Assembly (NCBI GenBank): GCA_005878325.1
Contig: VBMR01000135.1
Coordinates: 1-35,433, forward strand
Origin: Methanobacteriota archaeon
GTDB taxonomy: Archaea; Thermoplasmatota; Thermoplasmata; RBG-16-68-12
Direction of reading: 5' to 3'
DNA length: 35,433 nucleotides
The notes beneath the pieces were generated by a model. The model saw only the letters and a program-made list of their open reading frames with translations, was not told the origin of the DNA and did not search any database. Shown here one piece after another: positions 2,009-35,171 of this stretch (positions are counted from its first letter, which is position 1; each line of letters starts with the position of its first letter). The translations under genes were made by a program, and so were the position numbers.

Positions 2009-2563
2009 TCACGCCTCGGACGACGAGGCGGTCTTGGCGATCCGCTCGCCGAGGGTTCGGAAGATCAGCTCTACGTTCTGCCCCGTCTTCGCGGAGGCGT
2101 AGAAGTACGGAGCGTCGAACGCCTCGGTCGCTTGCTTCACCTGTTCCTCCCCGAACGCGGCCTGGTCTTTCAGGTCCATCTTGTTCACCGCGAACGTCAC
2201 CGGAATTTCCCCGACGGTCCGGAAGACAGATTCCACCCACGAGTCGAGGTCTTCCAGGGTGTCGTAGCGCGTGAGGTCCGCGACCGCGAGGATCCCCTGT
2301 GCCCCGTGGAAGTATGCTTCCCGGAGCAGCTCGCGAAAGCCTTTCGAGCCCATGATGTCCCAGATCGTCATGTCCATCTGGATCCCTTCGCCGCCCTTCG
2401 ACGGGAGGGTGAGTTCCTTCTTCGACACCTTCGCTCCGAGCGTCACGATGTACCGATCGTCGTACTCGTTCAGGACGTACCGCTTGATGAGGGAAGTCTT
2501 CCCCACGGCGTGCTCGCCGACGAGGCAGACCTTCACTTTCATTCGACGTGGTTCCATCATCAC
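2009..2563 (-). CDS. Ras-superfamily (Rab/Arf-like) small GTPase
   Basis: All five G motifs are visible in the 184-aa ORF: G1 GEHAVGKT, G2 Thr in YIVTLGA, G3 WDIMG, G4 NKMD, G5 SAK. The likely true start is MKVKVCLVG at 2542. Confidence 0.85.
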   Translation of the reverse strand: MMMEPRRMKVKVCLVGEHAVGKTSLIKRYVLNEYDDRYIVTLGAKVSKKELTLPSKGGEGIQMDMTIWDIMGSKGFRELLREAYFHGAQGILAVADLTRYDTLEDLDSWVESVFRTVGEIPVTFAVNKMDLKDQAAFGEEQVKQATEAFDAPYFYASAKTGQNVELIFRTLGERIAKTASSSEA

Positions 2564-3917: not shown

Positions 3918-5513
3918 CTATTCCTTTTTCCGGCCCGCCCGAAGCTTCAGGCCGATGATGAGGAGGGGGACGACCGCGACGAACATCATGTCGGACAGTT
4001 CCGGGATCGAGACGATCACGGACGAGTTGCCCCCGACGAGTGCGTACCCGCCGGTCGTCGTGTAGTTCAGGAAGGCCCAGTTCACCAGGACGGAACCCGT
4101 GAAGGTCGGGTCCACCAGGGCGGTGAGGGTCAGGCTGTGCGCGCCCGGTGCGACGCTGGTCAGGTTCCAGTAGAAGGTCCGTCCATTCGTCCAGGTCGGC
4201 GCGAGGCTCGCGCTCTGATACGTCATGCCGCTCGGCAGGCTGTCCTGGATCGTGACCGTACCAGCCGCGGCGGAGCCGGTGTTGTTGTAGTAGACCGTGA
4301 AGGTCACGACATCGCCAGGCCGGGCGGAACCGGGTGTCGCGGTCTTCATGATCGTGATGGTCGGGCGGGACACGGTCGTGTTCGCCCAGGCCGTGGATCC
4401 GGGTAGCGACCGTCGGACCTGGTCCACGTAGTTCAGGGTCACGACGTTGCCGAGGAGCTGACCGTCCGTCGTCGCGGCGGTCACCGCGACGGTGATCGTG
4501 AAGGAGTGGGCCCCCGGGGTCACGTCCGCGAAGATCCAACCGTACGTGGAACCGGAGACGGAGTTGTACGGGGCACTCGAGGCCGTGTACGCGACGCCAC
4601 TCGGCAGAGTGTCGTTCACCCAAACCCTGTTCGCATTCCCCGTGTTCGTGTTGTTGTAGTAGACCATATAGAGGATCGATTGGCCGGGAGCCGCGATGGA
4701 TCGGCTCGCCGTCTTCGCCACCGCGATCGTGGGCCGATGCCGATCGTTCGCCTGTCCTGACGAGGGAAGGGTCGATATGTAGAAGTCCGCCGCATCGTTG
4801 TTCGTGTCCATCGGGACGCCGGTCACGGGGTCCTTGAAGCGTGCCCACGTCTGTCCCGTGTTTACGTTCTGCGCATAGGTCGTCTGATCGATGATCGTCG
4901 TCCCCTGCCGCAGTCGGAGGACGCCGTTGCCGTTCGGCAGCGAGGCTGCCGCCAGGGACGCCCGGAGGTATTCGGTCCCGGAGCCGAACGCGCCGAGGAC
5001 CTGCGTCGTGAAGGTGAAAATCACGATCGAGCGCCCTCCCCGGACGAGGACCAGGTTCCAGCCGCCCAGAGGGATCGCGCTCGCCGTCGGGTTCGCGATT
5101 TCGATCCACTCCGGATTCGGTTGCGGGCTGACCTCGTTGAGGACGGCGTTAGTCGCCGCTCGGGCCCCGACGGCGAAGCGGGCTACGGCCGCATCCGGCA
5201 ACGCCACATCGTACCCGAGGCGCCAGTCCGATGCAACGTACACGACCCCGTAACCGGATTGGAGACCCAGGGTCGTGGCGTTGATCGCGAATTCGAGGCG
5301 ATGGGCGTCCAACCCGAAGGGGACGCCCTGGACGAAGTTCCATGGCACCGCTTGACCGGGGGCGAACGCATAGAGGCCGCTCGAGTTGACGACCCCATTC
5401 CGTCCGATGACGGCGATGGCATAATCGAACCCGTAGAGCTGCCCGGACACGTCGGACCACTCCCCGGTCGCCGGTCCCGTCCGGGTGGTCCACTTGCCCG
5501 TCCCCGTCCACAT
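3918..5513 (-). CDS. C-terminal reading frame of the same surface protein: lamin-tail (LTD) domain, two DUF11-like repeats, C-terminal TM anchor
   Basis: LTD signature AVLNEVSPQPNPEWIEIANPTASAIPLGGWNLVLV...GVLRLRQG. Two repeats have DUF11/CARDB character (PTIAVAKTASRSIAAPGQSILYMVYYNNTNTGNANRVWVNDTLPSGVAY and PTITIMKTATPGSARPGDVVTFTVYYNNTGSAAAGTVTIQDSLPSGMTY). The C-terminus is IPELSDMMFVAVVPLLIIGLKLRAGRKKE. There is no credible independent N-terminus or signal peptide, and sense coding in this frame starts at about 5465. Confidence 0.7.
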   Translation of the reverse strand: MWTGTGKWTTRTGPATGEWSDVSGQLYGFDYAIAVIGRNGVVNSSGLYAFAPGQAVPWNFVQGVPFGLDAHRLEFAINATTLGLQSGYGVVYVASDWRLGYDVALPDAAVARFAVGARAATNAVLNEVSPQPNPEWIEIANPTASAIPLGGWNLVLVRGGRSIVIFTFTTQVLGAFGSGTEYLRASLAAASLPNGNGVLRLRQGTTIIDQTTYAQNVNTGQTWARFKDPVTGVPMDTNNDAADFYISTLPSSGQANDRHRPTIAVAKTASRSIAAPGQSILYMVYYNNTNTGNANRVWVNDTLPSGVAYTASSAPYNSVSGSTYGWIFADVTPGAHSFTITVAVTAATTDGQLLGNVVTLNYVDQVRRSLPGSTAWANTTVSRPTITIMKTATPGSARPGDVVTFTVYYNNTGSAAAGTVTIQDSLPSGMTYQSASLAPTWTNGRTFYWNLTSVAPGAHSLTLTALVDPTFTGSVLVNWAFLNYTTTGGYALVGGNSSVIVSIPELSDMMFVAVVPLLIIGLKLRAGRKKE

Positions 5514-8286
5514 CGTGTCCCGTCTGATCGTCCGTCGTGTTGTCGTTGTTGAAGTCGCGCTCGAGGCCCGATCGGAGAGTCGTCTCGACCCAGTCGGGGA
5601 CCGTATCGAGGTCCGTGTCGGCCGCGGACACATACGTTCGGGACCGCGAGGTGGGGATGTCCTGGCCTCCGAGGATTCGGCCGTCGACTCGGACGTATCC
5701 GGTGAAATTCGTTCCCACATCGACCGCGGTCGCAAGGATGTCGACGTTGGCGTTGTACTCCAGCGCACCCGTCCGGTTCGTCACGTCGCCGAGGAAGTCC
5801 TGGCCGTAGGTCCGGCCTTGCCAGTCTCCAAACGCGCCGTCGATCTGGAGGCTCGTTGGCGCCGAAGCGAGATACACGAGCCCGATCTCGGGCGATCGGA
5901 AGCTCGCGGTTCCGTTGGAGGCGAGCCCGTCGACCGATAGGCCGAAGGTCGAGGTGGCGGTCATGTTGGTCCAGGAGGCTTCGACCCACAGAATCGTCGG
6001 AGAGGAGATATCGCGGTCGACCGGGAGGCTGGCGGTCGTCCCCGTCATGGGCACCGTCGAGAGAAGGGCATCGGCCGGATCGAAGTTTCCGCTTCCGTCA
6101 TCTCGATACACGGACAGGTCGACGGGGTCGGTGGAACTTCCAAGCCGTGTCACGTTCAGGGCCGTGGCATGCGGGATCCCTCCGAGCGGATCGAGCGTCA
6201 CCCGGAGGATCGCGGTTCGGCCCGTCACCACATCCGGGGCAACGGTAGCCTGTTCGACGATGAGCGTCGGGAGGGAGGCCCGCACCGATCCATCGGCCGG
6301 GTCGCGGTTGCCCAAGTTGTCGGCCGCATAGGTGAGGATCCGCGCGTTCGCAGGATCGGCCACCGTCATTCGCAACTCGAGATCTTGATTGCTGAACGCG
6401 GCATCGGCGGAACCACCTGGAATGAACCGAGACCAGTCGTTCGATCGCGGGCCGCGGGACGCGTCGAATTCCAACGCGAGCACGCCGTGCTCGATCGAAC
6501 CGAGCTGGGACCATCCGAACACTTCGACCGCGGAGTCGGCGCCAAGGTCCCCGATCGGATAGCCGGTCAAGCGGTTCGCGTCCTGGTCGACGAAGACGAA
6601 GACGCTATCCGTCTCGTTCGGAGAGGCGCCGTCGAACAGGAGGCCCTGAACTCTCGCGTTCACGAACAGATCGTGGCCCTGCGTCGCGACCTTCGTCGCG
6701 AGGAGGTTCACTGCGGGGTTCTGGATCTGGTCGATGGGCGAGTCCGCGTACGCGGGGATCGCCGCCCAGTCGCTGAAGTCGCCATCGATTCGAATCAGGG
6801 CAGAGGGACCCGCGGGGGACGGGGAGAGGATGCTCGCGAGGATTGGGACGATGAGCATCAAGGCGACGACCGCCGCGATGCCCGTGACGGATCGGGACCA
6901 GTGGGGCTGGGCCGGGATCCGGGGCGCCGCGGGGCCACTCCGTCGTCCGTTCGTGAACCCGTTTCCGTTGACGAGTCCATTTGTCGCCCCGCGACCGAAT
7001 GTGAGGCCGTTCACGCGACCTTCTGATACGCCATTGACCCGGCCGTTCGTGCGGCCGTTCACGTGGCCATTCGTCCGGCCATTGACCCGACCGTTGGTGC
7101 GGCCGTTGGTGTATCCTACGGTACCGAGGCCAGGGGTCCCAAGGCCGCTCGAACGGAGACCGGTCGCCCCCGATCGGAGGGACCCTTCCTCCGCCCGGGC
7201 CAATTGCTCCGCCCGGTCACGGCTCGCGCGTGCCTCGTCCGTCCGGCCCAAGCGCTCGAGGATTTCCGCCTTCGTCTGCCAGGCCACGACCAGGCTCCCG
7301 TCCGCCTTGAGCAGAGAGTCGTAGTGGGCGAGCGCGTCGAGGAGGCGGGGATCCAGCTTCGCCGAGGGCGCGGGGGATGAAGTCGCCGCGGGCTGCTTCC
7401 ACCGCGGCGGGAGGACGGAGGCATCCCCGGTCGTCCGCAGGAGGTTCTGGACCTCCAACCGGTACTCCTCGTCCCGCGCGGGGTTCAGTTCCGCCGCCTT
7501 GGCGAGGGACTCGACGGCCTCCTTCGGGCGGCCCAACTTCTCGAGCACCTTCGCGCGGTTCGCCCAGGCCCGTTCGAGCGACGCATCGGCTTCGAGGAGG
7601 CGGTCGAAATGGTCCAGCTCTTCCCGGAGGCGGTCCGCCTCTGCGATCGGCGAAACCGGTTCGGCCATCCGCTGCCACCGGGTAAGGAAGTCTTTCACGA
7701 CGGACTTGCCCGCGGGGGTCACCTCGGGCCGTTCCGCGATCGGGCTCCCGCAAATCGCGCATTCCGACTCGTCGGAGAAGAGGTACGCTCCACACCGCGG
7801 ACAGAAGGGCGCGGAGTCATCGAGAGAGGCGTCGAGTCCGGGCAGGAGGGCCAACTCCTCGGCCGTGTATCGTCGATGACAGATCCCGCAGGTCGTCGCG
7901 TCCTTCGTCATCGCAGCGCCGCAGGTCTGACAAATGCGCGGGGGTTGGTCCGCCTCCTTCAGGAACTGATCAAGGCCCTCCGAGAGATCGTCCTCCGGAG
8001 ACGCGTCGAACTCGACACCGCAGAAGGGGCACGCTCCCGCCTCCGTCCCGACGAAGGAGCCGCATTTCGGACACAGGAACAGATGATTCGACTCCTCGCC
8101 CGCTCGGCCGAGGAGTCCGAGGATGGACTCGATGTCCTGCGGGGTCAGGCCCTCGACCGACGCGAGCTGTTCCCGCGTCGCGGACCGCAGCGCCTCATAG
8201 GTCGGAAAGCGTTCCGCGATCCGACGGGCCCGCCCGAGATCGGAGCCGGGAATCGAACTCAGCCATTCGAGATAGCTCTCGTCCAT
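5149..8286 (-). CDS. Large surface/adhesin-like protein, N-terminal reading frame (HhH, three zinc ribbons, TPR, NGRx repeats, TM helix, extracellular region). Genuine coding appears to end near 5467, where the frame shifts.
   Basis: The ORF translation shows these elements in order: an HhH-like stretch SIPGSDLGRARRIAERFPTYEALRSATREQLASVEGLTPQDIESILGLL; zinc ribbons CPKCG..CPFCG, CQTCG..CGIC and CPRCG..CAICG; TPR-like helical repeats; (NGRx)n repeats; the TM helix VTGIAAVVALMLIVPILASIL; and then a long Asp/Thr/Gly-rich extracellular sequence ending in DVDGDGQVDHPDGTGD. The last ~105 codons (RGVVRRVRAALRVRL...) look non-coding. Confidence 0.7.
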   Translation of the reverse strand: MDESYLEWLSSIPGSDLGRARRIAERFPTYEALRSATREQLASVEGLTPQDIESILGLLGRAGEESNHLFLCPKCGSFVGTEAGACPFCGVEFDASPEDDLSEGLDQFLKEADQPPRICQTCGAAMTKDATTCGICHRRYTAEELALLPGLDASLDDSAPFCPRCGAYLFSDESECAICGSPIAERPEVTPAGKSVVKDFLTRWQRMAEPVSPIAEADRLREELDHFDRLLEADASLERAWANRAKVLEKLGRPKEAVESLAKAAELNPARDEEYRLEVQNLLRTTGDASVLPPRWKQPAATSSPAPSAKLDPRLLDALAHYDSLLKADGSLVVAWQTKAEILERLGRTDEARASRDRAEQLARAEEGSLRSGATGLRSSGLGTPGLGTVGYTNGRTNGRVNGRTNGHVNGRTNGRVNGVSEGRVNGLTFGRGATNGLVNGNGFTNGRRSGPAAPRIPAQPHWSRSVTGIAAVVALMLIVPILASILSPSPAGPSALIRIDGDFSDWAAIPAYADSPIDQIQNPAVNLLATKVATQGHDLFVNARVQGLLFDGASPNETDSVFVFVDQDANRLTGYPIGDLGADSAVEVFGWSQLGSIEHGVLALEFDASRGPRSNDWSRFIPGGSADAAFSNQDLELRMTVADPANARILTYAADNLGNRDPADGSVRASLPTLIVEQATVAPDVVTGRTAILRVTLDPLGGIPHATALNVTRLGSSTDPVDLSVYRDDGSGNFDPADALLSTVPMTGTTASLPVDRDISSPTILWVEASWTNMTATSTFGLSVDGLASNGTASFRSPEIGLVYLASAPTSLQIDGAFGDWQGRTYGQDFLGDVTNRTGALEYNANVDILATAVDVGTNFTGYVRVDGRILGGQDIPTSRSRTYVSAADTDLDTVPDWVETTLRSGLERDFNNDNTTDDQTGHDVDGDGQVDHPDGTGDRGVVRRVRAALRVRLCHRRHRTEWGRQLERPLCVRPRSSGAMELRPGRPLRVGRPSPRIRDQRHDPGSPIRLRGRVRCIGLAPRVRCGVAGCGRSPLRRRGPSGD
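6943..7110 (-). repeat. Coding 12-nt tandem repeat giving about 14 NGRx tetrapeptide units
   Basis: The protein reads TNGRTNGRVNGRTNGHVNGRTNGRVNGVSEGRVNGLTFGRGATNGLVNGNGFTNGRR. On the DNA the ccgttcac/ccattgac/ccgttggt units recur every 12 nt. Confidence 0.85.
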
Positions 8287-9066: not shown

Positions 9067-9930
9067 TCACCCCCCCTGGTACTCCTGGAGGATCAGGTCG
9101 AGGACTTCTTCGGGCTTCAGGCCCCGGAAGTCCGCATCCGTGAGGCCATCGAGCGATTTGTCCAGGTGGTCCCGAATCGTCTTCGGCATCGAGCGGGTGA
9201 GCAAGAGTTGCCTCAGTTGGGACGGCGCCTTCGCGGTCACGGGCCGGCCGCCATCCACGCCCTGGATCACGATGCCGAGCCCGCGGAGGATTTGGAACGG
9301 ATGAGCCGAAGGACTGTGACGACTGTTCCGGCACTTCACGATCTTCAGATGACGTGCGGAATCCGAGTTAGAGCTGAACTGCAAGTGGATGACGCAATCC
9401 GCGAGGTACATCGGGATGACGGTCTCCGGTCCCGCGAGGTCCGCCGATCCGTGGTCCTCGAGCGTGCAGAGGACCGTCCCGACTTTGCGGGTCTGCTTGA
9501 ACATGTATCCGATCAGGTCCCGTTGTTCATACAGGTCTTTCGTCGACCAGAGGACCGGGGTCAGGGGATCGATCACGATCCGCGCATTGCTCCCCTTCCA
9601 GTCCGCGACGAACGCGGGCAGCTCCTTCCGGATGAAGTTCGAGAATTCGCGCCCCGAGGCGTCGATGAAGACGAGCAGCTCGTCGTCGAGGGATTCGAGG
9701 ATGTCGGACCACCCCATCTCGACCGCTTCCCGGATGATTTGCTCCTTGTTCTCGTCGAGGCTGACGAAGATGCCCTCCTGGCCTTCTTGCAGTCCTCGTC
9801 GAATGAACTGCGTGGCGAACGTCGTCTTGCCCGCGCCGGAGCGGCCGATGACGACGGTCGTGCTGTTCTCATTCACCCCGCCGTCGAGCAGGGGGTTGAG
9901 TCCGTAGACTCCGCTGCGAATCTTTCGCAC
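9067..9930 (-). CDS. Single-domain KaiC/RecA-superfamily ATPase
   Basis: SGVYGLNPLLDGGVNENSTTVVIGRSGAGKTTFATQFI carries the Walker A motif, and ARIVIDPL is Walker B-like. The overall layout matches archaeal KaiC-like proteins, with about 60 extra C-terminal residues. Confidence 0.8.
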   Translation of the reverse strand: MRKIRSGVYGLNPLLDGGVNENSTTVVIGRSGAGKTTFATQFIRRGLQEGQEGIFVSLDENKEQIIREAVEMGWSDILESLDDELLVFIDASGREFSNFIRKELPAFVADWKGSNARIVIDPLTPVLWSTKDLYEQRDLIGYMFKQTRKVGTVLCTLEDHGSADLAGPETVIPMYLADCVIHLQFSSNSDSARHLKIVKCRNSRHSPSAHPFQILRGLGIVIQGVDGGRPVTAKAPSQLRQLLLTRSMPKTIRDHLDKSLDGLTDADFRGLKPEEVLDLILQEYQGG

Positions 9931-10353: not shown

Positions 10354-10446
10354 CCGCGGGCCATAAAGATTCACCCGAGGACTCGGCCCCTTAGCGGCGA
10401 GTAGTTTCGCACACCTCCCCCGGGAACGACGAAGCCCTTGGCCGAT

Positions 10447-10466
10447 ATACCTCTACTTAGAGGTAT
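10447..10466. repeat. 20-bp near-perfect palindrome ATACCTCTAC/TTAGAGGTAT, copy 1
   Basis: Read directly: atacctctacttagaggtat has 9-bp arms around a central ct. It sits immediately 5' of the small ORF and overlaps a gatata TATA-like element. Confidence 0.9.
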
Positions 10467-10469
10467 GAA

Positions 10470-10757
10470 ATGGAAATCGGATGCGGCGCCCGCGTGCGGG
10501 ACTTCGACGGTCGACGGTACTTCTACTTCTGGCACTACGAACGGGACAACGGACGGTCGAAGAGGAAGGAGGACTACGTCGGCCGCGTGGACTCGGAGAA
10601 GGCGAGGTCGGATCTCCTCCGTCGCATGGCGGCCTACCATCGGAGGGCGGAGCAGGAGTTCGCCCGACGGAGGGCGCGGATCGAGGGCCTCGTCCGGCGC
10701 ATACCTCTACTTAGAGGTACATCGGCTGAAGGGCATCCCTCGGTGGCTGCGAGGTGA
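10470..10757 (+). CDS. Small basic hypothetical protein (95 aa), possibly DNA-binding
   Basis: The translation MEIGCGARVRDFDGRRYFYFWHYERDNGRSKRKEDYVGRVDSEKARSDLLRRMAAYHRRAEQEFARRRARIEGL... looks protein-like (aromatic beta-hairpin-like segment plus basic helix), unlike the other two frames. A TATA-like gatata lies ~22 nt upstream of the ATG, which would suit a leaderless transcript. Confidence 0.5.
   Translation: MEIGCGARVRDFDGRRYFYFWHYERDNGRSKRKEDYVGRVDSEKARSDLLRRMAAYHRRAEQEFARRRARIEGLVRRIPLLRGTSAEGHPSVAAR
10701..10720. repeat. Copy 2 of the same palindrome (19/20 identical)
   Basis: atacctctacttagaggtaC lies 254 bp downstream of copy 1, inside the 3' end of the small ORF. Confidence 0.9.
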
Positions 10758-10884
10758 GGACTTCTCGGCCCCGCTGGGCGGGACCAACCGCGGATTGCTT
10801 CGCGGGGCCTGCTGTCTCCAGACGGAAAGGCATATACCCGGTCCTCCGGATGGGGCTGCCGCCCTCGTTCTCGGAAGGGATGGA

Positions 10885-13800
10885 ATGGGTTCGCCCGTCG
10901 CCTCCGAGGAGGTCCGGTCCTACTTCGCGGATCTCCTGTCGCAAGTCGATTCGACGTACGCCGTCGCCCGCGCGGCCCGAGCCCGGGGATTCGATCCGGA
11001 GCTCGACGTCGAAATCCCCCTCACCGACGACCTTGCGTCTCGGGTCGAACGCCTCCTCGAGAACTACGAGGTCGAAGGCGTGGCCCGACGGATCCGGGAG
11101 CTCGCGAAAGACCACGATCGGGAGGAACTCGCGATCCTCGTCGCGAAAGAGATGGCCCAGCGACCCGCGGCGAGCAAGGAGAAGGCGGTCGAACGCGCGG
11201 TCCGTGTCGGTCTCGCAATCCTGACGGAAGGCATCCTGGTCGCACCGCTCGAAGGCCTCGCCGGGGTCAAGATCAAACGAAATCGCGACGGCACCTCGTA
11301 CGTCGATCTGTCCTACGCAGGGCCCATCCGGTCGGCGGGGGGGACCGGCCAGGCGCTCAGCGTCCTGATCGCAGACCTGGTGCGCCGCGAACTCGACATC
11401 GGGAGGTATCAGCCCACCCGGGAAGAGGTCGAGCGGTTCAAGGAGGAAATCCCGCTCTATCGACAAGTGCAGCACCTCCAATACTCGCCGACCGAGGGAG
11501 AGATCTCCCTGATCGTGTCGAACTGCCCCGTCGCCATCAACGGCGAAGGGACGGAAGATGCGGAGATCAGCGGCTTCCGGGACCTCCCGCGGGTCGAGAC
11601 GAACCGCATCCGCGGCGGCGCATGCCTCGTGATCGCGGACGGGATGTGTTTGAAGGCGCCGAAGATCCAGAAACATGTCCGCACCCTCCGGATCGACGGA
11701 TGGGAATTCGTGGATGCGTACCTCGCGGAGAAGAAGGCCGGGCCGGAGGACTCGAAAGAGGATTCGAGCGTGGAGCCGAACGAGGTGTTCATCCAGAACA
11801 TCGTCGCGGGCCGGCCGGTCCTGTGCCACCCGAGCCGCCCCGGCGGTCTCCGCCTCCGGTACGGGCGAACGCGGGCCACGGGCCTTGCCGCGCTGGCCCT
11901 CCATCCGGCGACGATGCACATCTTGGACGACTTCATCGCTGTCGGTACCCAGGTGAAGACGGAGCGTCCGGGAAAGGCGGGGGCCATCACGCCGTGCGAG
12001 TCGATCGACGGCCCCCTCGTCGTGCTCGACACCGGGGATTTCGTGGAGGTCCCCGACGCCGAGACGGCGAAGCGCCTGCGACCTCAAGTCCGGGTGATCG
12101 CAGACCTCGGAGAGATCCTCATCCCCTTCGGCGAATTTCTGGAAAACAACCATGTCCTCATGCCAGGCGCCTTCTCGCTCGAATGGTACAGTGCCCTCCT
12201 TCAAGCGAAACGGGGATCCCTTCCCGAGGCCTGGCAGGAGCCTTCGGCGGCCCAGGCGCTTGAATGGTCCCGGACCTTCCGCGTCCCCCTTCATCCGCGA
12301 TACAACCTGTTCTACCACGATTTTTCGTCCGAGGAACTTCGCGTCCTCCGCGAGCGGATCGTCGCGGAGGGCCGGATCGACAACGGTCGGTTGGTCCTCC
12401 CCGCGACCCCGGAATTTCGGGAATGGCTCGTCCGGCTCGGGGCGCCGTTTTCCATCCGCGGGTCCGATCTCGCCCTCGAGCGTCACACGGAGACGCTCCT
12501 CGCGACCCTGGGCATCGCGCCCCACGAGAGAGCCTTGCAGATCGGGCCCGAGCCACCTCCGGAAACCCCGGATCCCCTCGCGTTCGTGAGCGCCCTCGCC
12601 GGCTTCCCGATCAAGGCCCGCGGGCCCACCCGGATCGGAGCACGCATGGCTCGTCCGGAAAAGGCGGCGCCACGGAAGATGCAGCCCGCACCCCACTCCC
12701 TGTTCCCGATCGGACACGAAGGCGGCGCTCAACGTCTCTTGTTGGACGCGGCCGCCAAGGACACGATCGAAGTCGAGGTGGGTCTGCGGACCTGCACGAC
12801 CTGTGGGAAGCGGTGGTTGCTCCCCAAGTGCTCGTGCGGCGGCCACACCCTCCCGCGGAACGGACCGAGGCGGCAACGGGTCCCGCTGGGCGAGATCTTG
12901 CGGTCGGCGCTCGAGCGCCTTGGCGAGCCGAAGCCCTCCGAGATCAAGGCGGTCCAAGGGATGATCTCGCGGACGAAGACCCCGGAGCCGATTGAGAAGG
13001 GCATCCTCCGGGCGAAGCACGATATCTATGTGTTCAAGGACGGGACGACGCGGTTCGACATGACGAACCTGCCCCTCACGCACTTCACCCCGAAGGAGGC
13101 GGGCATCTCCGTTGGCGTGGCGCGGCGGCTGGGATATGCGAAAGACATCGGCGGGCGTCCCCTGGAGGACGAGGACCAGATCCTCGAGCTCCGTCCCCAG
13201 GACATCCTCGTCGCCCGGTCGTGCGGGGAGTACCTTCTCCGGGTCGCCTCCTTCGTGGATGACCTCCTGGAGCGCCTGTACGGGTTGGCCCGTTTCTATC
13301 GGGCCACCTCCATCGAGGACTTGCTGGGTCACCTGGTCGTCACGCTGGCACCGCACACGAGCGGCGGGGTCCTCGCCCGGATCGTCGGCTTCACCGATTC
13401 GAAGGCCTGTTTCGCCCACCCCCACCTGATCGCCGCGCGCCGTCGGAACTGCGACGGAGACGAGGACTCCGTGATCCTGCTCCTGGACAGCCTCGTGAAT
13501 TTCTCCCGGGCGTTCCTCCCGGACAAACGGGGCGGCCTCATGGATGCGCCCCTGGTGCTGTCGACGCAGATCGACCCGAACGAAATCGACAAGGAGGCGC
13601 ACAACCTCGATGTCTCGGCGACGTATCCCCTCTCCCTGTACGAAGCGGCCGAACGGTTCGCCCACCCGCGGGAAATCGAGCCCCAGATCGACACGGTGGG
13701 CAAGCGGATCGGGAGCGTCCTCCAGTACGAGGGGTTCGCCTATACCCACCCGACGAAGAGCGTGGCGCAGGGGCCCCTCGCCTCCGCGTACGGCGAAGGG

Positions 13801-14199
13801 TCCATGATGGAGAAGATCGACAAGCAGCTCGACCTCGCGCTCCGGATCCGGGCCGTGGACCCGAACGATGTCGTGGCGCGCATCGTCGTCCACCATTTCC
13901 TCCCCGACCTGATCGGGAACCTGAAGGCGTTCTCGAGCCAGCAGGTCCGCTGCACGAAGTGCGGCACGAAGTACCGACGGATCCCGCTCCGCGGGCGATG
14001 CCCGAGCTGCGGGGGCAATCTCACGTTGACCGTCCACGAGAGCTCCGTCAAGAAGTACCTCGAGGTTTCCAAGCGGATCAGCCAACAGTTCGAGGTCTCG
14101 AACTATCTGCGTCAGCGGATCGACCTGATCGAGGACGCGATCGCGTCCCTGTTCACGAACGACAAGACGCAGGATCTCAAGCTCGACGACTTCTTCTAG
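10885..14199 (+). CDS. polC: DNA polymerase II (PolD) large subunit DP2
   Basis: The sequence is DP2-like from MGSPVASEEVRSYFADLLSQVDSTYAVARAARARGFDPELDVEIPL onward. It has the catalytic NCDGDEDSVILLLD motif and zinc fingers CTTCGKRWLLPKCSCGG and CTKCGTKYRRIPLRGRCPSCGG. At about 1104 aa there is no intein. The upstream part of the track ORF (10438-10884) does not look like coding sequence. Confidence 0.93.
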   Translation: MGSPVASEEVRSYFADLLSQVDSTYAVARAARARGFDPELDVEIPLTDDLASRVERLLENYEVEGVARRIRELAKDHDREELAILVAKEMAQRPAASKEKAVERAVRVGLAILTEGILVAPLEGLAGVKIKRNRDGTSYVDLSYAGPIRSAGGTGQALSVLIADLVRRELDIGRYQPTREEVERFKEEIPLYRQVQHLQYSPTEGEISLIVSNCPVAINGEGTEDAEISGFRDLPRVETNRIRGGACLVIADGMCLKAPKIQKHVRTLRIDGWEFVDAYLAEKKAGPEDSKEDSSVEPNEVFIQNIVAGRPVLCHPSRPGGLRLRYGRTRATGLAALALHPATMHILDDFIAVGTQVKTERPGKAGAITPCESIDGPLVVLDTGDFVEVPDAETAKRLRPQVRVIADLGEILIPFGEFLENNHVLMPGAFSLEWYSALLQAKRGSLPEAWQEPSAAQALEWSRTFRVPLHPRYNLFYHDFSSEELRVLRERIVAEGRIDNGRLVLPATPEFREWLVRLGAPFSIRGSDLALERHTETLLATLGIAPHERALQIGPEPPPETPDPLAFVSALAGFPIKARGPTRIGARMARPEKAAPRKMQPAPHSLFPIGHEGGAQRLLLDAAAKDTIEVEVGLRTCTTCGKRWLLPKCSCGGHTLPRNGPRRQRVPLGEILRSALERLGEPKPSEIKAVQGMISRTKTPEPIEKGILRAKHDIYVFKDGTTRFDMTNLPLTHFTPKEAGISVGVARRLGYAKDIGGRPLEDEDQILELRPQDILVARSCGEYLLRVASFVDDLLERLYGLARFYRATSIEDLLGHLVVTLAPHTSGGVLARIVGFTDSKACFAHPHLIAARRRNCDGDEDSVILLLDSLVNFSRAFLPDKRGGLMDAPLVLSTQIDPNEIDKEAHNLDVSATYPLSLYEAAERFAHPREIEPQIDTVGKRIGSVLQYEGFAYTHPTKSVAQGPLASAYGEGSMMEKIDKQLDLALRIRAVDPNDVVARIVVHHFLPDLIGNLKAFSSQQVRCTKCGTKYRRIPLRGRCPSCGGNLTLTVHESSVKKYLEVSKRISQQFEVSNYLRQRIDLIEDAIASLFTNDKTQDLKLDDFF

Positions 14200-30497: not shown

Positions 30498-30806
30498 CTA
30501 GCCGAACAGCGCACCCAGACCTGCGGCCGCCTCTTCCTCCGAGACTTTCTCTTCTTCCTTCTTCTCCTCTTTCTTTTTCTCTTCCTTCTTCTCGGGGGCG
30601 GGCGCGGCTGCCGGGGCGGGGGCGGGCACGGCGACGGCGGCCTTCAGGGCCTCGTCGATGTTCACGCCTTCCAGGGCGGCGGTCAGGGCCTTCACGCGGG
30701 TCTCGTCGACCTTCACGCCGGCGGCGGTGAGGACCTTTTTCAGGTTCTCCTCATTCACCGGCTTCCCGGCCGCGTGTAGGACCAGCGCTCCATACACATA
30801 TTCCAT
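30498..30806 (-). CDS. rpl12: Ribosomal stalk protein P1 (aL12)
   Basis: [26 protein letters not shown]... followed by an Ala/Pro hinge, KKEEKKEEE, and the C-terminal GLGALFG. The Shine-Dalgarno sequence ggaggtga (30813-30820) lies 6 nt upstream. Confidence 0.95.
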
Positions 30807-33519: not shown

Positions 33520-33858
33520 TCAGCCGGTCAGCTGCTTGTCGAACTTGCCCGCTTGAATCTCCTTCGAGAACTCCTTCGCCGGCTTCCCCTCGACCGTGAC
33601 GCCCATGGAGACGCAGGTGCCGACGACTTCGAGCGCCCGGGCCTTCAAGGTCTTCGCAAGCGTCGCGTCGGCCTTCATGTTCGCGACCCGAATCGCCTGC
33701 GCAAGGGTCAGGTTGCCGACCCGTGTCTTCCCGGCGTCCCCCGAGCCCTTCTCAATCCTCAGCTCCTTCAGGATCAGGGCAGAGGTCGGAGGGGTGCCGA
33801 CCTCGATCGTGAAGGCCTTCGTCTTCGGATCGACGATCAGGATGACGGGGACTTTCAT
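33520..33858 (-). CDS. rpl11: Ribosomal protein uL11; the ORF as drawn lacks the conserved N-terminal region
   Basis: MKVPVILIVDPKTKAFTIEVGTPPTSALILKELRIEKGSGDAGKTRVGNLTLAQAIRVANMK... matches uL11 from the GM.VPV motif onward. The in-frame upstream codons still read IVEILKAINEKTKSFEG but have no start codon. Confidence 0.85.
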   Translation of the reverse strand: MKVPVILIVDPKTKAFTIEVGTPPTSALILKELRIEKGSGDAGKTRVGNLTLAQAIRVANMKADATLAKTLKARALEVVGTCVSMGVTVEGKPAKEFSKEIQAGKFDKQLTG

Positions 33859-33979
33859 GCCCTCAAACGATTTCGTCTTCTCGTTGATCGCCTTCAGGAT
33901 TTCGACGATACAACGACGCCCGGAAGCGTCATACGGCCATCCCGACCCCGTGTCGAAGGATCCTCAGGGGTGCGCTTGC

Positions 33980-34843
33980 CTACTTGTCCTCTTCTTTCTG
34001 GAGGACCCGCACGCTGTCGCCGCGCACGGTCACGGGGATCCTCACCATGGCCTCGAACAGTTCGACCGTGATCTCCTCTTTCGTCTCGTCGATCTTCATG
34101 ACGCGGGCCTTCTCTCCTTTGAACGGTCCGGCGACGAGCTCCACGATGTCGCCTTCCATGATTCCGCTGACGATGGGCTTCGGCGTGAGATAGGCCTCGA
34201 TCTCCGAGAACGAGATGCCCGTGGACTCGCCCTCTCCCTTGACCACGCCTCGCGCCCGTCGCAGGCCTCGGACAATCTCCTCGAGTCGATCGGGGTTCAT
34301 GCTCTCGACGTACACGTAGCCGCGGAAGTTCGCCGGGACCAGGATCGAGAAGACTCCGACGTCTTTCGCCTTGGCCCGGGCATAGATCGCGTCGGCGACG
34401 GCCCGTTCGTGACCGATCGAGCTCTTCACCGCGAGGACCGCCTGACGGGCGCTGAAACTCAGGGTCTTCGTGTCGAAGGCTCCCGGATCGCCTTTTGAAA
34501 TCGCGTTCACGACGACGTTCAGCCGGTCCCCGTATCGGGCGCCCTTCGGACAGGTGACGGTCAAGGTGATCTCCCGTTGACCATCCGCGATGAGGGCGAA
34601 CTCCTTCTCCGTCACCTTCGTGAACGTGACGTCCCAGACCTTGTCCTCGACGCCAAAGAGCTTGACGATCCACTCCGGCGGTTCCGGCAGGTCGGAGTCG
34701 TAGACCGGATCGATCTTGAGCCGGATCGTGTCGTCTTCCGTCCCGGTGTTCGTCACGACGACCGGATACTCCTTCGTCTGCCCGGCCGTGAGCGAGACTT
34801 TTTGCTCCGTCAGATCGAGTTTGACCCCGGAGTGGCCGGTCAC
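33980..34843 (-). CDS. spt5: Transcription elongation factor Spt5 (NusG) with a fused N-terminal ~135-aa beta-sandwich-like extension
   Basis: The C-terminal ~150 aa are AVLAVKSSIGHERAVADAIYARAKAKDVGVFSILVPANFRGYVYVES... (NGN domain) and GDIVELVAGPFKGEKARVMKIDETKEEITVEL (KOW domain). The N-terminal part resembles CARDB/NEW3-type Ig-like domains: VSLTAGQTKEYPVVVTNTGTEDDTIRLKI...REITLTVTCPKGARYGDRLNVVVNA. Confidence 0.85.
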   Translation of the reverse strand: MTGHSGVKLDLTEQKVSLTAGQTKEYPVVVTNTGTEDDTIRLKIDPVYDSDLPEPPEWIVKLFGVEDKVWDVTFTKVTEKEFALIADGQREITLTVTCPKGARYGDRLNVVVNAISKGDPGAFDTKTLSFSARQAVLAVKSSIGHERAVADAIYARAKAKDVGVFSILVPANFRGYVYVESMNPDRLEEIVRGLRRARGVVKGEGESTGISFSEIEAYLTPKPIVSGIMEGDIVELVAGPFKGEKARVMKIDETKEEITVELFEAMVRIPVTVRGDSVRVLQKEEDK

Positions 34844-34910
34844 CGGGGGCTCCGATTTGGATTCCGTCTTCGGCTCCCGTTTCGGCAGGTCATCGATGAG
34901 GCCCAGGGAA

Positions 34911-35171
34911 TCAACCCCCGACGGTCTGGAAGATCCCGCGAAAGAGCCCCGGCCCGTACCGCATGATCAGGTAGATGATGAAGCCGAGGGCGCCGATTGC
35001 GGCAATCCCCACGCCGGTGATCATGACAACCTTCGAGTATTCGTCGCTCGTCGGCTTGCGCGCCATCTTGAGGACCCGGCCATACTTGCCTTTGCCCAGG
35101 CGCTTCATCCTCTCTTCGATCCGACGCTGGACGTCCCAACTCTTGTCCACGATGTCCGCCATCGGCCTCAC
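34911..35171 (-). CDS. secE: Protein translocase subunit SecE (Sec61-gamma)
   Basis: [39 protein letters not shown] is the typical archaeal SecE layout. The GTG at 35171 overlaps the ftsZ stop, and an alternative ATG lies at 35162. Confidence 0.85.

What the first reader, a model, noticed from the sequence alone, without database searches (positions are those of the whole stretch)
33980..34843. Spt5/NusG carries a fused ~135-aa N-terminal Ig-like (CARDB/NEW3-like) domain
Archaeal Spt5 is normally ~150 aa (NGN plus KOW). Here the NGN domain begins at ...AVLAVKSSIGHE, with no start codon at the position equivalent to the canonical Met. It is preceded in frame, with no stop, by ~135 residues. 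That stretch shows an alternating beta-strand pattern and motifs typical of extracytoplasmic beta-sandwich domains (VSLTAGQTKEYPVVVTNTGTEDDTIRLKI, REITLTVTCPKGARYGDRLNVVVNA), but it has no signal peptide. An extra domain on the universally conserved RNA-polymerase clamp-binding factor would be unusual. It could recruit a partner to elongating RNAP.
Basis: partly seen in the sequence, partly recalled or inferred. Interest (0 to 1): 0.65.

Follow-up and report, generated by a model that had tools for sequence, protein, structure and literature searches.

The report
Spt5 with extra N-terminal Ig domain
The universal transcription elongation factor Spt5 of this soil archaeon really does carry an extra, well-folded Ig-like domain at its front end. 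The same three-part protein occurs across a large group of Thermoplasmata archaea, including gut methanogens, yet I found no paper that describes it.

Summary
The ORF at 33980..34843 (-) is continuous. Its C-terminal 150 residues are a complete archaeal Spt5 (TIGR00405, NGN plus KOW) in the canonical ftsZ-secE-spt5-L11 cluster. The N-terminal part folds confidently (AF2 pLDDT 87) into an Ig-like beta-sandwich of the NEW3/FixG_C/CARDB/DUF11 type.

The fusion is not an artefact:
- Contigs from two independent soil metagenomes and a metatranscriptome contig cross the domain junction.
- dN/dS of the Ig part is 0.05-0.21.
- No conserved internal start codon exists at the junction.
- All 80 best GTDB species loci have the long form (269-381 aa). 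These include Methanomassiliicoccus, Methanomethylophilaceae and UBA10834.

Corrections to the finding: relatives start 21 codons further upstream, with a conserved MGLLDD peptide and a Pro/Glu/Lys linker. The window has CTG in place of that ATG. A non-conserved GTG does lie at 34429.

Function is inferred, not shown. The domain is acidic and rigidly joined to NGN strand beta1, so it most likely acts as a protein-contact module riding on the RNA polymerase clamp.

Verdict: a new variant of a known kind, of moderate interest. Separately, the L11 gene just downstream is truncated by a probable assembly mis-join.

The parts
33980..34906 (-). Full spt5 reading frame as used by relatives. It is 308 codons plus the stop. 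Residue 1 is CTG at 34906..34904 in the window, where relatives have ATG or GTG.
   Evidence: Translation. Alignment with 32 homologues. DNA alignment with close relatives L003, L004 and L007.
34904..34906 (-). CTG at the position of the family's start codon (Met of MGLLDD). This is a real strain variant, not a sequencing error.
   Evidence: One search shows ATG in L003, L004 and L007. An X1 contig of 793 nt covers 34191-34983 with 0 differences.
34841..34843 (-). GTG, the first canonical start codon in the window's frame (residue 22). A GGAG lies 6 nt upstream and is specific to the window. This is a possible replacement start that would drop only the N-terminal peptide and linker.
   Evidence: Relatives have CGAG where the window has GGAG.
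34829..34906 (-). N-terminal tail, residues 1-26. It consists of a conserved short peptide (LGLIDDL here, MGL[LF]DD in relatives) followed by a Pro/Glu/Lys-rich linker. It is predicted to be disordered.
   Evidence: Alignment A1. AF2 pLDDT is below 50 for residues 1-17. Motif survey of 80 species. dN/dS is 0.19-0.41.
34442..34828 (-). Ig-like beta-sandwich domain, residues 27-155. It is of the NEW3/FixG_C/CARDB/DUF11 (E-set) type. It is acidic and has no signal peptide.
   Evidence: AF2 on the domain alone gives mean pLDDT 87.4, pTM 0.74 and 9 strands. Foldseek matches ASH/PapD-like, sialidase Ig, GH123 N-domain and MG domains. Pfam hits are sub-threshold. Profile search. dN/dS is 0.05-0.21. 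Median pI is 4.8.
34190..34441 (-). NGN domain, residues 156-239. It is joined to the last Ig strand by the conserved two-residue joint Arg154-Gln155.
   Evidence: Pfam PF03439. TIGR00405. PDB alignment. In the AF2 model, strand 144-153 is followed by strand 156-162.
33983..34156 (-). KOW domain and C-terminal tail, residues 251-308.
   Evidence: Pfam PF00467. PDB alignment.
34427..34429 (-). GTG codon (Val160) inside NGN strand beta1. It is the only candidate internal start for a short form and it is not conserved.
   Evidence: A start-capable codon occupies this position in 22 of 74 species. No boundary position exceeds that number.
34911..35171 (-). secE (Sec61-gamma). Its stop codon lies 4 nt upstream of the spt5 family start codon, which suggests an operon with ftsZ-secE.
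   Evidence: Pfam SecE is sub-threshold (E 6.9e-4). Synteny in relatives. An RNA contig covers 34801-34951.
33520..33909 (-). The rpl11 (L11) gene. Only the part from about codon 31 onward is present in the window.

Best explanation
This is the organism's orthologous, housekeeping Spt5, made as a three-part protein:
1. A short conserved N-terminal peptide plus a flexible Pro/Glu/Lys linker (about 26 aa).
2. An acidic Ig-like beta-sandwich (about 129 aa), captured from the family of repeat domains found in large prokaryotic multi-repeat proteins.
3. The canonical NGN-KOW module.

Shown:
- The long form is the conserved gene product across a large Thermoplasmata clade, including Methanomassiliicoccales.
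- The Ig part is under purifying selection and is transcribed on the same RNA as NGN.
- NGN-KOW is complete. The basic NGN residues that touch upstream DNA in the Pyrococcus elongation complex are retained.

Inferred:
- The Ig domain is joined to NGN strand beta1 by only two conserved residues, so it travels with NGN on the tip of the RNA polymerase clamp.
- It attaches at the end of beta1 that points away from the upstream-DNA contact.
- It is acidic, so it most likely works as a protein-protein contact surface rather than a nucleic-acid binder. The contact could be to another part of RNAP or Spt4, or to a recruited partner.
- In lineages that have the N-terminal peptide, that peptide would be a second, tethered docking motif.
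For: Identity as Spt5:
- TIGR00405 equivalog scores 168.9 bits against a cutoff of 69.95, covering positions 2-145 of 145.
- NGN and KOW are both present.
- The C-terminal half aligns end to end with solved archaeal Spt5 structures.
- Synteny is ftsZ-ftsZ-secE-spt5-L11-L1-L10-P1 in relatives and in the window.

A real, conserved fusion:
- The 120 best homologues at 54-94% identity nearly all cover 96-100% of the query; the rest are shorter, mostly partial sequences.
- All 80 best GTDB species loci encode proteins of 269-381 aa, apart from one locus truncated at a contig end. NGN starts at residue 123-235 in the 74 loci where it could be placed.
- Methanomassiliicoccales proteins are 275-300 aa. 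They include Ca. Methanomassiliicoccus intestinalis WP_020449553.1 at 291 aa.
- A divergent branch also has the long form.

Fold: pLDDT is 87.4 and the model is a beta-sandwich. Foldseek returns Ig-like, ASH and PapD-like hits.

Superfamily.

Selection: dN/dS of the Ig part is 0.05-0.21, against 0.02-0.14 for NGN-KOW.

No conserved internal start.

Reads:
- DNA contigs from two studies cross the junction with 0-4 differences and no indels.
- RNA contigs lie at 34541-34691, 34801-34951 and 34304-34566. The last one crosses the junction.

Charge: median net charge is -6 and median pI is 4.8 in 74 species.

Retained DNA-contact residues: P. furiosus R64, H65/66 and R67 (PMC11162788) align with the invariant R216, R217 and R219.
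Against: - No partner, contact surface or phenotype is known.
- I could not inspect model coordinates. The pTM of the full-length model is only 0.56, so the orientation of the Ig domain relative to NGN is uncertain.
- Most invariant residues of the Ig domain (LTAG, NxG, PEW, CPxGxxYGD) are the usual structural motifs of this fold. They do not mark a functional site.
- In this particular strain the family start codon is CTG, so the N-terminal peptide may not be made.
- Protein-level evidence for the long form is missing.
- A second, short Spt5 paralogue elsewhere in these genomes was not excluded.
Confidence: 0.55

Rival explanations
1. The extra domain works like the additional domains of Thermotoga maritima or Aquifex aeolicus NusG. 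It would bind nucleic acid (upstream duplex DNA or RNA) and RNAP non-specifically and so stabilise the elongation complex.
For: There is precedent. Some bacterial NusG proteins carry an extra domain that binds dsDNA and RNAP (PMC5224480; PMC6391919). Archaeal Spt4/5 contacts upstream DNA (PMC11162788).
Against: - The domain is acidic in nearly all of 74 species. Median net charge is -6 (range -18 to +2) and median pI is 4.8.
- It is N-terminal rather than inserted into NGN.
- Its carriers are mesophiles of soil and gut, so the thermostability argument does not apply.
- It attaches at the end of strand beta1 opposite the DNA-contacting loop. This last point is an inference.
Confidence: 0.1
2. 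The Ig domain acts within the molecule. Either it masks or regulates the NGN surface (autoinhibition, as in RfaH or T. maritima NusG), or it occupies or replaces the Spt4-binding edge of NGN.
For: The joint between the last Ig strand and NGN beta1 is very short and conserved (Arg-Gln), which suggests a fixed interdomain geometry. Autoinhibition is known in the NusG family.
Against: - Housekeeping Spt5 must bind RNAP on most genes, so constitutive masking is unlikely.
- The presence or absence of Spt4 in these genomes was not tested.
- No interdomain contact information could be obtained.
Confidence: 0.12
3. Only a short, canonical Spt5 is made, from an internal start near 34429. The upstream ~155 codons would then be a leader or a separately decaying gene remnant.
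For: A GTG exists at 34429..34427. NCBI annotation of near-identical genomes calls a truncated 205-aa product from an internal Met (P0085). The window lacks the family ATG.
Against: - The frame is open across dozens of species in several orders.
- dN/dS is 0.05-0.21.
- The fold is confident.
- No start-capable codon is conserved at the boundary; the maximum is 22 of 74.
- Starting at the GTG would remove part of NGN strand beta1.
- L003 does contain the full 308-codon ORF with an ATG.
Confidence: 0.03
4. The fusion is an assembly join or a frameshift artefact in this contig.
For: The contig does have a local mis-join about 70 nt downstream of the spt5 stop, at 33900-33909. Strains are also mixed in this region.
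Against: - Independent contigs from two runs in two studies cover 34191-34983 with 0 differences and 33900-34983 with 4 differences, and with no indels.
- An RNA contig spans 34304-34566.
- Hundreds of independent assemblies encode the same architecture.
Confidence: 0.01

Closest known systems
Canonical archaeal Spt5 (NGN plus one KOW, about 150 aa). Examples are P. furiosus 3P8B/8OKI, T. kodakarensis 9BCT and M. jannaschii 4ZN1. NCBIfam TIGR00405.
   Same: - Residues 156-308 align end to end (E 1e-41 to 1e-49, about 41-44% identity).
- The protein passes the equivalog threshold.
- It occupies the same genomic slot between secE and L11.
- The basic residues that contact upstream DNA are retained.
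   Different: - It carries about 155 extra N-terminal residues: a peptide, a linker and an Ig-like domain.
- Reviews describe archaeal Spt5 as NGN plus a single KOW (PMC6391919; PMC11162788).
- Four literature searches found no mention of an N-terminal domain.
Bacterial NusG proteins with an additional domain (Thermotoga maritima DII, Aquifex aeolicus domain II).
   Same: Both are members of the universal NusG/Spt5 family that gained a lineage-specific extra globular domain next to NGN. In both cases the function of the extra domain is poorly understood (PMC5224480).
   Different: - The bacterial domains are inserted inside NGN. Here the domain is fused to the N-terminus.
- The bacterial domains bind nucleic acids through basic surfaces and occur in hyperthermophiles. 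Here the domain is acidic and occurs in mesophilic soil and gut archaea.
- No homology between them was detected.
Eukaryotic Spt5 (DSIF large subunit), with its acidic N-terminal region ahead of NGN.
   Same: The topology is the same: an acidic N-terminal extension precedes NGN on the Spt5 orthologue (PMC6391919).
   Different: The eukaryotic region is intrinsically disordered and is accompanied by several extra KOW domains and a CTR. Here the extension is a folded beta-sandwich and there is only one KOW. Independent origin is an inference.
NEW3 (NPCBM_assoc, PF10633), FixG_C (PF11614), CARDB (PF07705) and DUF11 (PF01345): Ig-like repeat domains of large prokaryotic multi-repeat proteins.
   Same: - The sequence pattern is shared: LxAG...NxG...P.W...P.Ga.YGD.
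- Pfam hits are sub-threshold to marginal.
- The domain profile retrieves hundreds of proteins with 6-18 such repeats.
- The fold is a beta-sandwich.
   Different: It is a single copy, has no signal peptide, is fused to a cytoplasmic transcription factor, and falls below the Pfam gathering scores in the window protein.

Membership tests
Archaeal Spt5 (TIGR00405 equivalog) | NGN domain followed by one KOW domain, scoring above the curated whole-protein cutoff | tested here: met
   PF03439 E 2.6e-15 and PF00467 E 3.9e-8. TIGR00405 scores 168.9 bits against a cutoff of 69.95, covering profile positions 2-145 of 145.
Archaeal Spt5 (TIGR00405 equivalog) | Orthologous genomic position (secE-spt5-rpl11 ribosomal/translocon cluster) | tested here: met
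   Window: secE at 34911-35171, spt5, L11, then TrmB, L1, L10 and P1. Relatives show the same order.
Archaeal Spt5 (TIGR00405 equivalog) | Two-domain architecture of about 150 aa that starts at NGN | tested here: not met
   About 155 extra N-terminal residues are conserved in all 80 best species loci. The protein is a member by orthology but an architectural variant.
Archaeal Spt5 (TIGR00405 equivalog) | Binding to the RNAP clamp coiled-coil, and heterodimer formation with Spt4 | not testable with these tools
   No complex prediction or coordinates were available. The presence of spt4 in these genomes was not examined.
NEW3/NPCBM_assoc, FixG_C, CARDB, DUF11 Ig-like domains (E-set) | Score above the Pfam gathering threshold | tested here: not met
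   Window protein: FixG_C at 23.1-23.6 bits (cutoff 25.6) and NPCBM_assoc at 20.6-21.3 bits (cutoff 24.4). Among 20 family members, 8 hit NPCBM_assoc (best E 1.4e-5) and 7 hit FixG_C (best E 1.4e-6). CARDB itself was not hit.
NEW3/NPCBM_assoc, FixG_C, CARDB, DUF11 Ig-like domains (E-set) | Homology shown by a reciprocal profile search | tested here: met
   The A2 profile gives 644 hits at E<=1e-3. Most are proteins of 500-4800 aa with 6-18 matched repeats. Of the three scanned, all carry FixG_C and NPCBM_assoc, P0129 and P0160 also carry CARDB, and P0136 and P0160 also carry DUF11.
NEW3/NPCBM_assoc, FixG_C, CARDB, DUF11 Ig-like domains (E-set) | Ig-like beta-sandwich fold | tested here: met
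   AF2 pLDDT 87.4 with 9 strands. Foldseek against the PDB gives E 1e-6 to 1e-4 and TM 0.41-0.59 to ASH/PapD-like, sialidase Ig, GH123 N-domain, MG and MSP domains.
NEW3/NPCBM_assoc, FixG_C, CARDB, DUF11 Ig-like domains (E-set) | Extracytoplasmic context (signal peptide or membrane anchor, tandem repeats) | tested here: not met
   The domain is a single copy. The N-terminal tail is hydrophilic with no hydrophobic segment. It is fused to a cytoplasmic factor.
NusG with inserted accessory domain (T. maritima DII / A. aeolicus DII) | Extra domain inserted within NGN that binds nucleic acid through a basic surface | tested here: not met
   The domain is N-terminal to NGN strand beta1. Net charge has a median of -6. 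Actual nucleic-acid binding was not testable here.

The most novel reading that the evidence does not exclude
In a whole clade of Thermoplasmata, which includes human-gut methanogens, Spt5 may have become an adaptor with two new docking elements. The first is a rigid acidic Ig-like platform on the RNAP clamp. The second, in the non-methanogenic orders, is a tethered N-terminal GL(L/F)(D/S) peptide on a Pro/Glu/Lys linker. The layout of that peptide and linker mirrors the C-terminal tail of the ribosomal stalk protein aP1 (...[12 protein letters not shown] in this genome).

Together these elements would physically couple elongating RNAP to another machine. Candidates are translation GTPases or the ribosome, the termination factor FttA, or chromatin proteins. 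That would be a lineage-specific way of coupling transcription to downstream processes.
Probability: 0.1. Interest if true: 0.85.

Novelty: new variant of a known kind. Interest (0 to 1): 0.58.

Why it matters
Spt5/NusG is the only transcription factor conserved in all domains of life. Archaeal Spt5 is used as the minimal NGN-KOW model for the eukaryotic protein.

A conserved third domain in a large archaeal clade shows that the archaeal factor is not uniformly minimal. The clade has tractable and medically relevant members (Methanomassiliicoccus, Methanomethylophilaceae).

The finding gives a concrete, testable handle on lineage-specific regulation of elongation, termination or coupling. It is also a clear case of an Ig repeat typical of large multi-repeat proteins being recruited into the cytoplasmic transcription machinery.

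On the practical side, it explains inconsistent gene calls in databases, where Spt5 appears as 205 aa or 281 aa instead of 308 aa.

Tried and rejected
1. Assembly or frameshift artefact at the junction. Rejected by independent DNA and RNA contigs and by conservation.

2. Internal start producing a canonical short Spt5. Rejected as a conserved feature.

3. Sequence-level identification of the N-domain. The PDB gave no hit, NCBIfam gave no hit and Pfam gave only sub-threshold hits.

4. Fold search for a specific functional analogue. Only generic Ig-like, ASH, PapD or MG folds came back at TM 0.41-0.59, so no function could be transferred.

5. Literature. Searches for Spt5 with Thermoplasmata or Methanomassiliicoccales, and for N-terminal or additional domains, found no description. 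A search for an Ig-like domain in Aquifex NusG found nothing in the searchable library, so I make no Ig-fold claim for Aquifex domain II.

6. Phylogenetic boundary of the fusion. I tried to learn whether Thermoplasmatales, Aciduliprofundales, Poseidoniia or E2 lack it. It could not be resolved, because every search lists only the best hits and almost all of those are long forms or partial fragments of them.

7. Interdomain geometry and the Spt4 interface.

8. One Pfam call failed because of wrong coordinates. One literature query was malformed.
Full report
**1. What is in the sequence**

On the minus strand, 33980..34843 is an uninterrupted 287-codon ORF starting at GTG. It lies between secE (34911..35171) and the L11 gene (33520..33858). 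ftsZ lies further upstream, and TrmB, L1, L10 and P1 lie further downstream. This is the standard archaeal position of spt5.

Pfam finds Spt5-NGN (aa 138-218, E 2.6e-15) and KOW (aa 230-261, E 3.9e-8). The NCBIfam equivalog model TIGR00405 matches over its whole length (positions 2-145 of 145) at 168.9 bits against a cutoff of 69.95. A profile search of PDB sequences aligns the C-terminal 150 residues end to end with T. kodakarensis, P. furiosus and M. jannaschii Spt5 (E 1e-41 to 1e-49). It finds nothing for the first ~155 residues.

**2. The true N-terminus**

The frame remains open upstream of the GTG. Homologues are typically 305-315 aa and start 21 codons earlier with a conserved MGLLDD(L/F)xK peptide followed by a Pro/Glu/Lys-rich linker. 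Close relatives (about 88% nucleotide identity) have ATG there, 4 nt after the secE stop. The window has CTG at 34906..34904. A public contig identical to the window over 34191-34983 confirms this.

In this strain, translation therefore starts either at the CTG or at GTG 34843. That GTG has a window-specific GGAG 6 nt upstream. Either way the Ig-like domain is included.

In 308-residue numbering the layout is:
- tail: residues 1-26
- Ig-like domain: residues 27-155
- NGN: residues 156-239
- KOW: residue 251 to the end

**3. The extra domain is a real, folded, selected domain**

- AlphaFold2 with an alignment of 20 family members gives mean pLDDT 87.4 and pTM 0.74, with nine beta-strands. In the full-length model the domain has pLDDT 78-93 and residues 1-17 are disordered.
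- Foldseek against the PDB returns only Ig-like sandwiches. These include the CEP192 ASH/PapD-like domain, the sialidase Ig linker, GH123 N-domains, TTHA1873, macroglobulin domains, the PorA N-domain, OCRL ASH and MSP. E-values are 1e-6 to 1e-4 and TM-scores 0.41-0.59.
- Pfam hits are just below threshold for the window: FixG_C at 23.6 bits (cutoff 25.6) and NEW3/NPCBM_assoc at 20.6 bits (cutoff 24.4). They recur in 7-8 of 20 members.
- An exhaustive profile search with the domain finds 644 proteins. About 20 are Spt5 fusions or fragments. Most of the rest listed are proteins of 500-4800 aa with 6-18 repeats. The three I scanned carry FixG_C and NEW3, and two of the three each also carry CARDB or DUF11.

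- dN/dS between the window and nine relatives is 0.05-0.21 for the Ig part, 0.02-0.14 for NGN-KOW and 0.19-0.41 for the tail.
- The domain is acidic. Median net charge is -6 and median pI is 4.8 in 74 species.

**4. The fusion is not an artefact and not a mis-called start**

- Logan contigs from two soil metagenomes of different studies cover 34191-34983 with 0 differences and 33900-34983 with 4 differences, without indels.
- Metatranscriptome contigs identical or nearly identical to the window lie inside the Ig region (34541-34691), over the secE/spt5 boundary (34801-34951) and across the Ig/NGN junction (34304-34566).
- In 74 species no codon position around the junction is start-capable in more than 22 species. 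The GTG at 34429 in the window would also cut into NGN strand beta1.
- The junction itself (Ala-Arg-Gln, then beta1) is highly conserved. It leaves only two residues between the last Ig strand and NGN beta1.

**5. Distribution**

- The 120 best database homologues of the window protein nearly all cover 96-100% of it.
- A scan of one genome per GTDB species found 587 relatives. All 80 retained loci encode long forms of 269-381 aa, apart from one locus truncated at a contig end.
- These loci include Methanomassiliicoccus spp., Methanomassiliicoccales RumEn M1, Ca. Methanarcanum hacksteinii, Methanomethylophilaceae, UBA10834, Ca. Saliniplasma and the RBG_16 genomes.
- Searches seeded from a Methanomassiliicoccaceae protein and from a divergent low-GC member again returned almost only long forms.
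- The reference genome of Ca. Methanomassiliicoccus intestinalis encodes a 291-aa 'transcription elongation factor Spt5' (WP_020449553.1).
- Methanomassiliicoccales lack the MGLLDD peptide and linker. Some lineages carry a roughly 50-residue helical insertion in the Ig domain.
- I could not determine whether Thermoplasmatales, Aciduliprofundales, Poseidoniia or E2 have the domain.

**6. How it probably works**

*Shown:* NGN-KOW is complete. The basic NGN residues that contact the upstream non-template strand in the P. furiosus elongation complex are R64, H65/66 and R67 (PMC11162788). They align with the invariant R216, R217 and R219. The canonical clamp-binding, cleft-bridging role is thus most likely retained.

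*Inferred:*
- The two-residue joint means the Ig domain sits in a fixed position on NGN.
- It attaches at the start of beta1, the end of the strand opposite the DNA-contacting loop that follows beta1.
- It is acidic, so nucleic-acid binding of the kind shown for T. maritima and A. aeolicus NusG extra domains (PMC5224480) is unlikely.
- The most economical model is a protein-contact platform on the elongation complex. It would touch another RNAP or Spt4 surface, or a recruited factor. In many lineages the N-terminal peptide would act as an additional tethered docking motif.

Rivals are nucleic-acid binding, intramolecular regulation or Spt4 replacement, a short isoform, and an artefact. They are scored in the Rival explanations section.

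**7. Comparison with what is known**

Reviews and structural papers describe archaeal Spt5 as NGN plus one KOW (PMC6391919; PMC11162788). Extra domains are documented only as insertions in some bacterial NusG proteins and as the disordered acidic N-terminus and extra KOWs of eukaryotic Spt5. Four full-text searches found no description of this architecture. Databases simply name the proteins Spt5 or NusG. I therefore classify it as a new variant of a known kind. It is present in public genomes but, as far as I could search, not described in the literature.

**8. Side finding**

The window's L11 gene lacks its first ~30 codons and its promoter region. Relatives have a 158-159 aa L11. In public runs, contigs like the window leave it at 33900 and run into a TTTATG-containing spacer like that of relatives. 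L11-side contigs and an RNA contig leave it at 33909 and run into sequence encoding GPALGPLGVN. No contig spans 33899-33910. This points to a mis-join of about 126 nt over a 10-nt overlap, probably caused by strain mixing. It does not touch spt5.

Noticed in passing
window 33859-33979 (breakpoint 33900-33909), minus strand: The L11 gene downstream of spt5 is truncated at its 5' end. The ORF is 112 aa and has only the PF00298 domain; relatives have 158-159 aa with PF03946 plus PF00298. Public contigs and RNA diverge from the window at 33900 and 33909, and none spans the junction. This is a probable assembly mis-join of about 126 nt in a strain mixture.
   Followed up: yes
window 34841-34906, minus strand: The start codon used by relatives (ATG or GTG of MGLLDD) is CTG in this strain, and public contigs confirm it. 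The next start is GTG 34843. A P-to-S codon change there creates a GGAG 6 nt upstream, which may be a compensatory new ribosome-binding site.
   Followed up: partly
window 34829-34906; loci L008-L087 (first ~30 codons of spt5): A conserved N-terminal peptide, MGL[LF][DE]D or GIGLLSG, followed by a Pro/Glu/Lys linker occurs in about 50 of 80 species. It is absent in Methanomassiliicoccales. Its layout loosely mirrors the aP1 stalk C-terminal tail of this genome (window 30498-30806: ...[18 protein letters not shown]).
   Followed up: partly
P0089, P0093, P0099, P0105, P0113, P0116, P0120; locus L020: A sub-lineage has Spt5 of 359-380 aa. It carries an insertion of about 50 residues, apparently helical (HHQEVK...KEAEE), between two strands of the Ig-like domain.
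   Followed up: no
loci L003-L006 (GCA_005879065.1 and others), gene 4001-4618: NCBI annotation of genomes with near-identical Spt5 (98% protein identity to the window) calls a 205-aa product from an internal Met inside the Ig domain. A 308-codon ORF with ATG is present. RBG_16_68_13 is called at 281 aa. Start calls for this family are inconsistent.
   Followed up: yes
loci L072, L076, L077: GTDB species-representative records titled Anaerovoracaceae bacterium, Dialister hominis and Bacteroidaceae bacterium carry contigs with a Methanomethylophilaceae-type archaeal spt5. This is likely mis-binned archaeal contigs in bacterial gut MAGs.
   Followed up: no
P0123 (406 aa): One family member has a stretch of about 100 residues with weak ribosomal L1 similarity (E 2.2e-7, below threshold) inserted in NGN. 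It is probably a chimeric or mis-assembled contig.
   Followed up: no
window 33830-34200 and 34925-34985: Public soil runs contain a second, more abundant, related strain at depth 20-38, against 5-10 for the window strain. It differs at many synonymous sites in the KOW region. This explains the local assembly trouble.
   Followed up: partly
window 2009-2563 (-): A 184-aa small GTPase gives a strong Ras/Roc family match (E 6e-32) in this archaeal contig. Nearby genes encode the PolD large subunit DP2 (10438-14199), a KaiC-like ATPase (9067-9930), and a 1045-aa TPR and zinc-ribbon protein (5149-8286).
   Followed up: no
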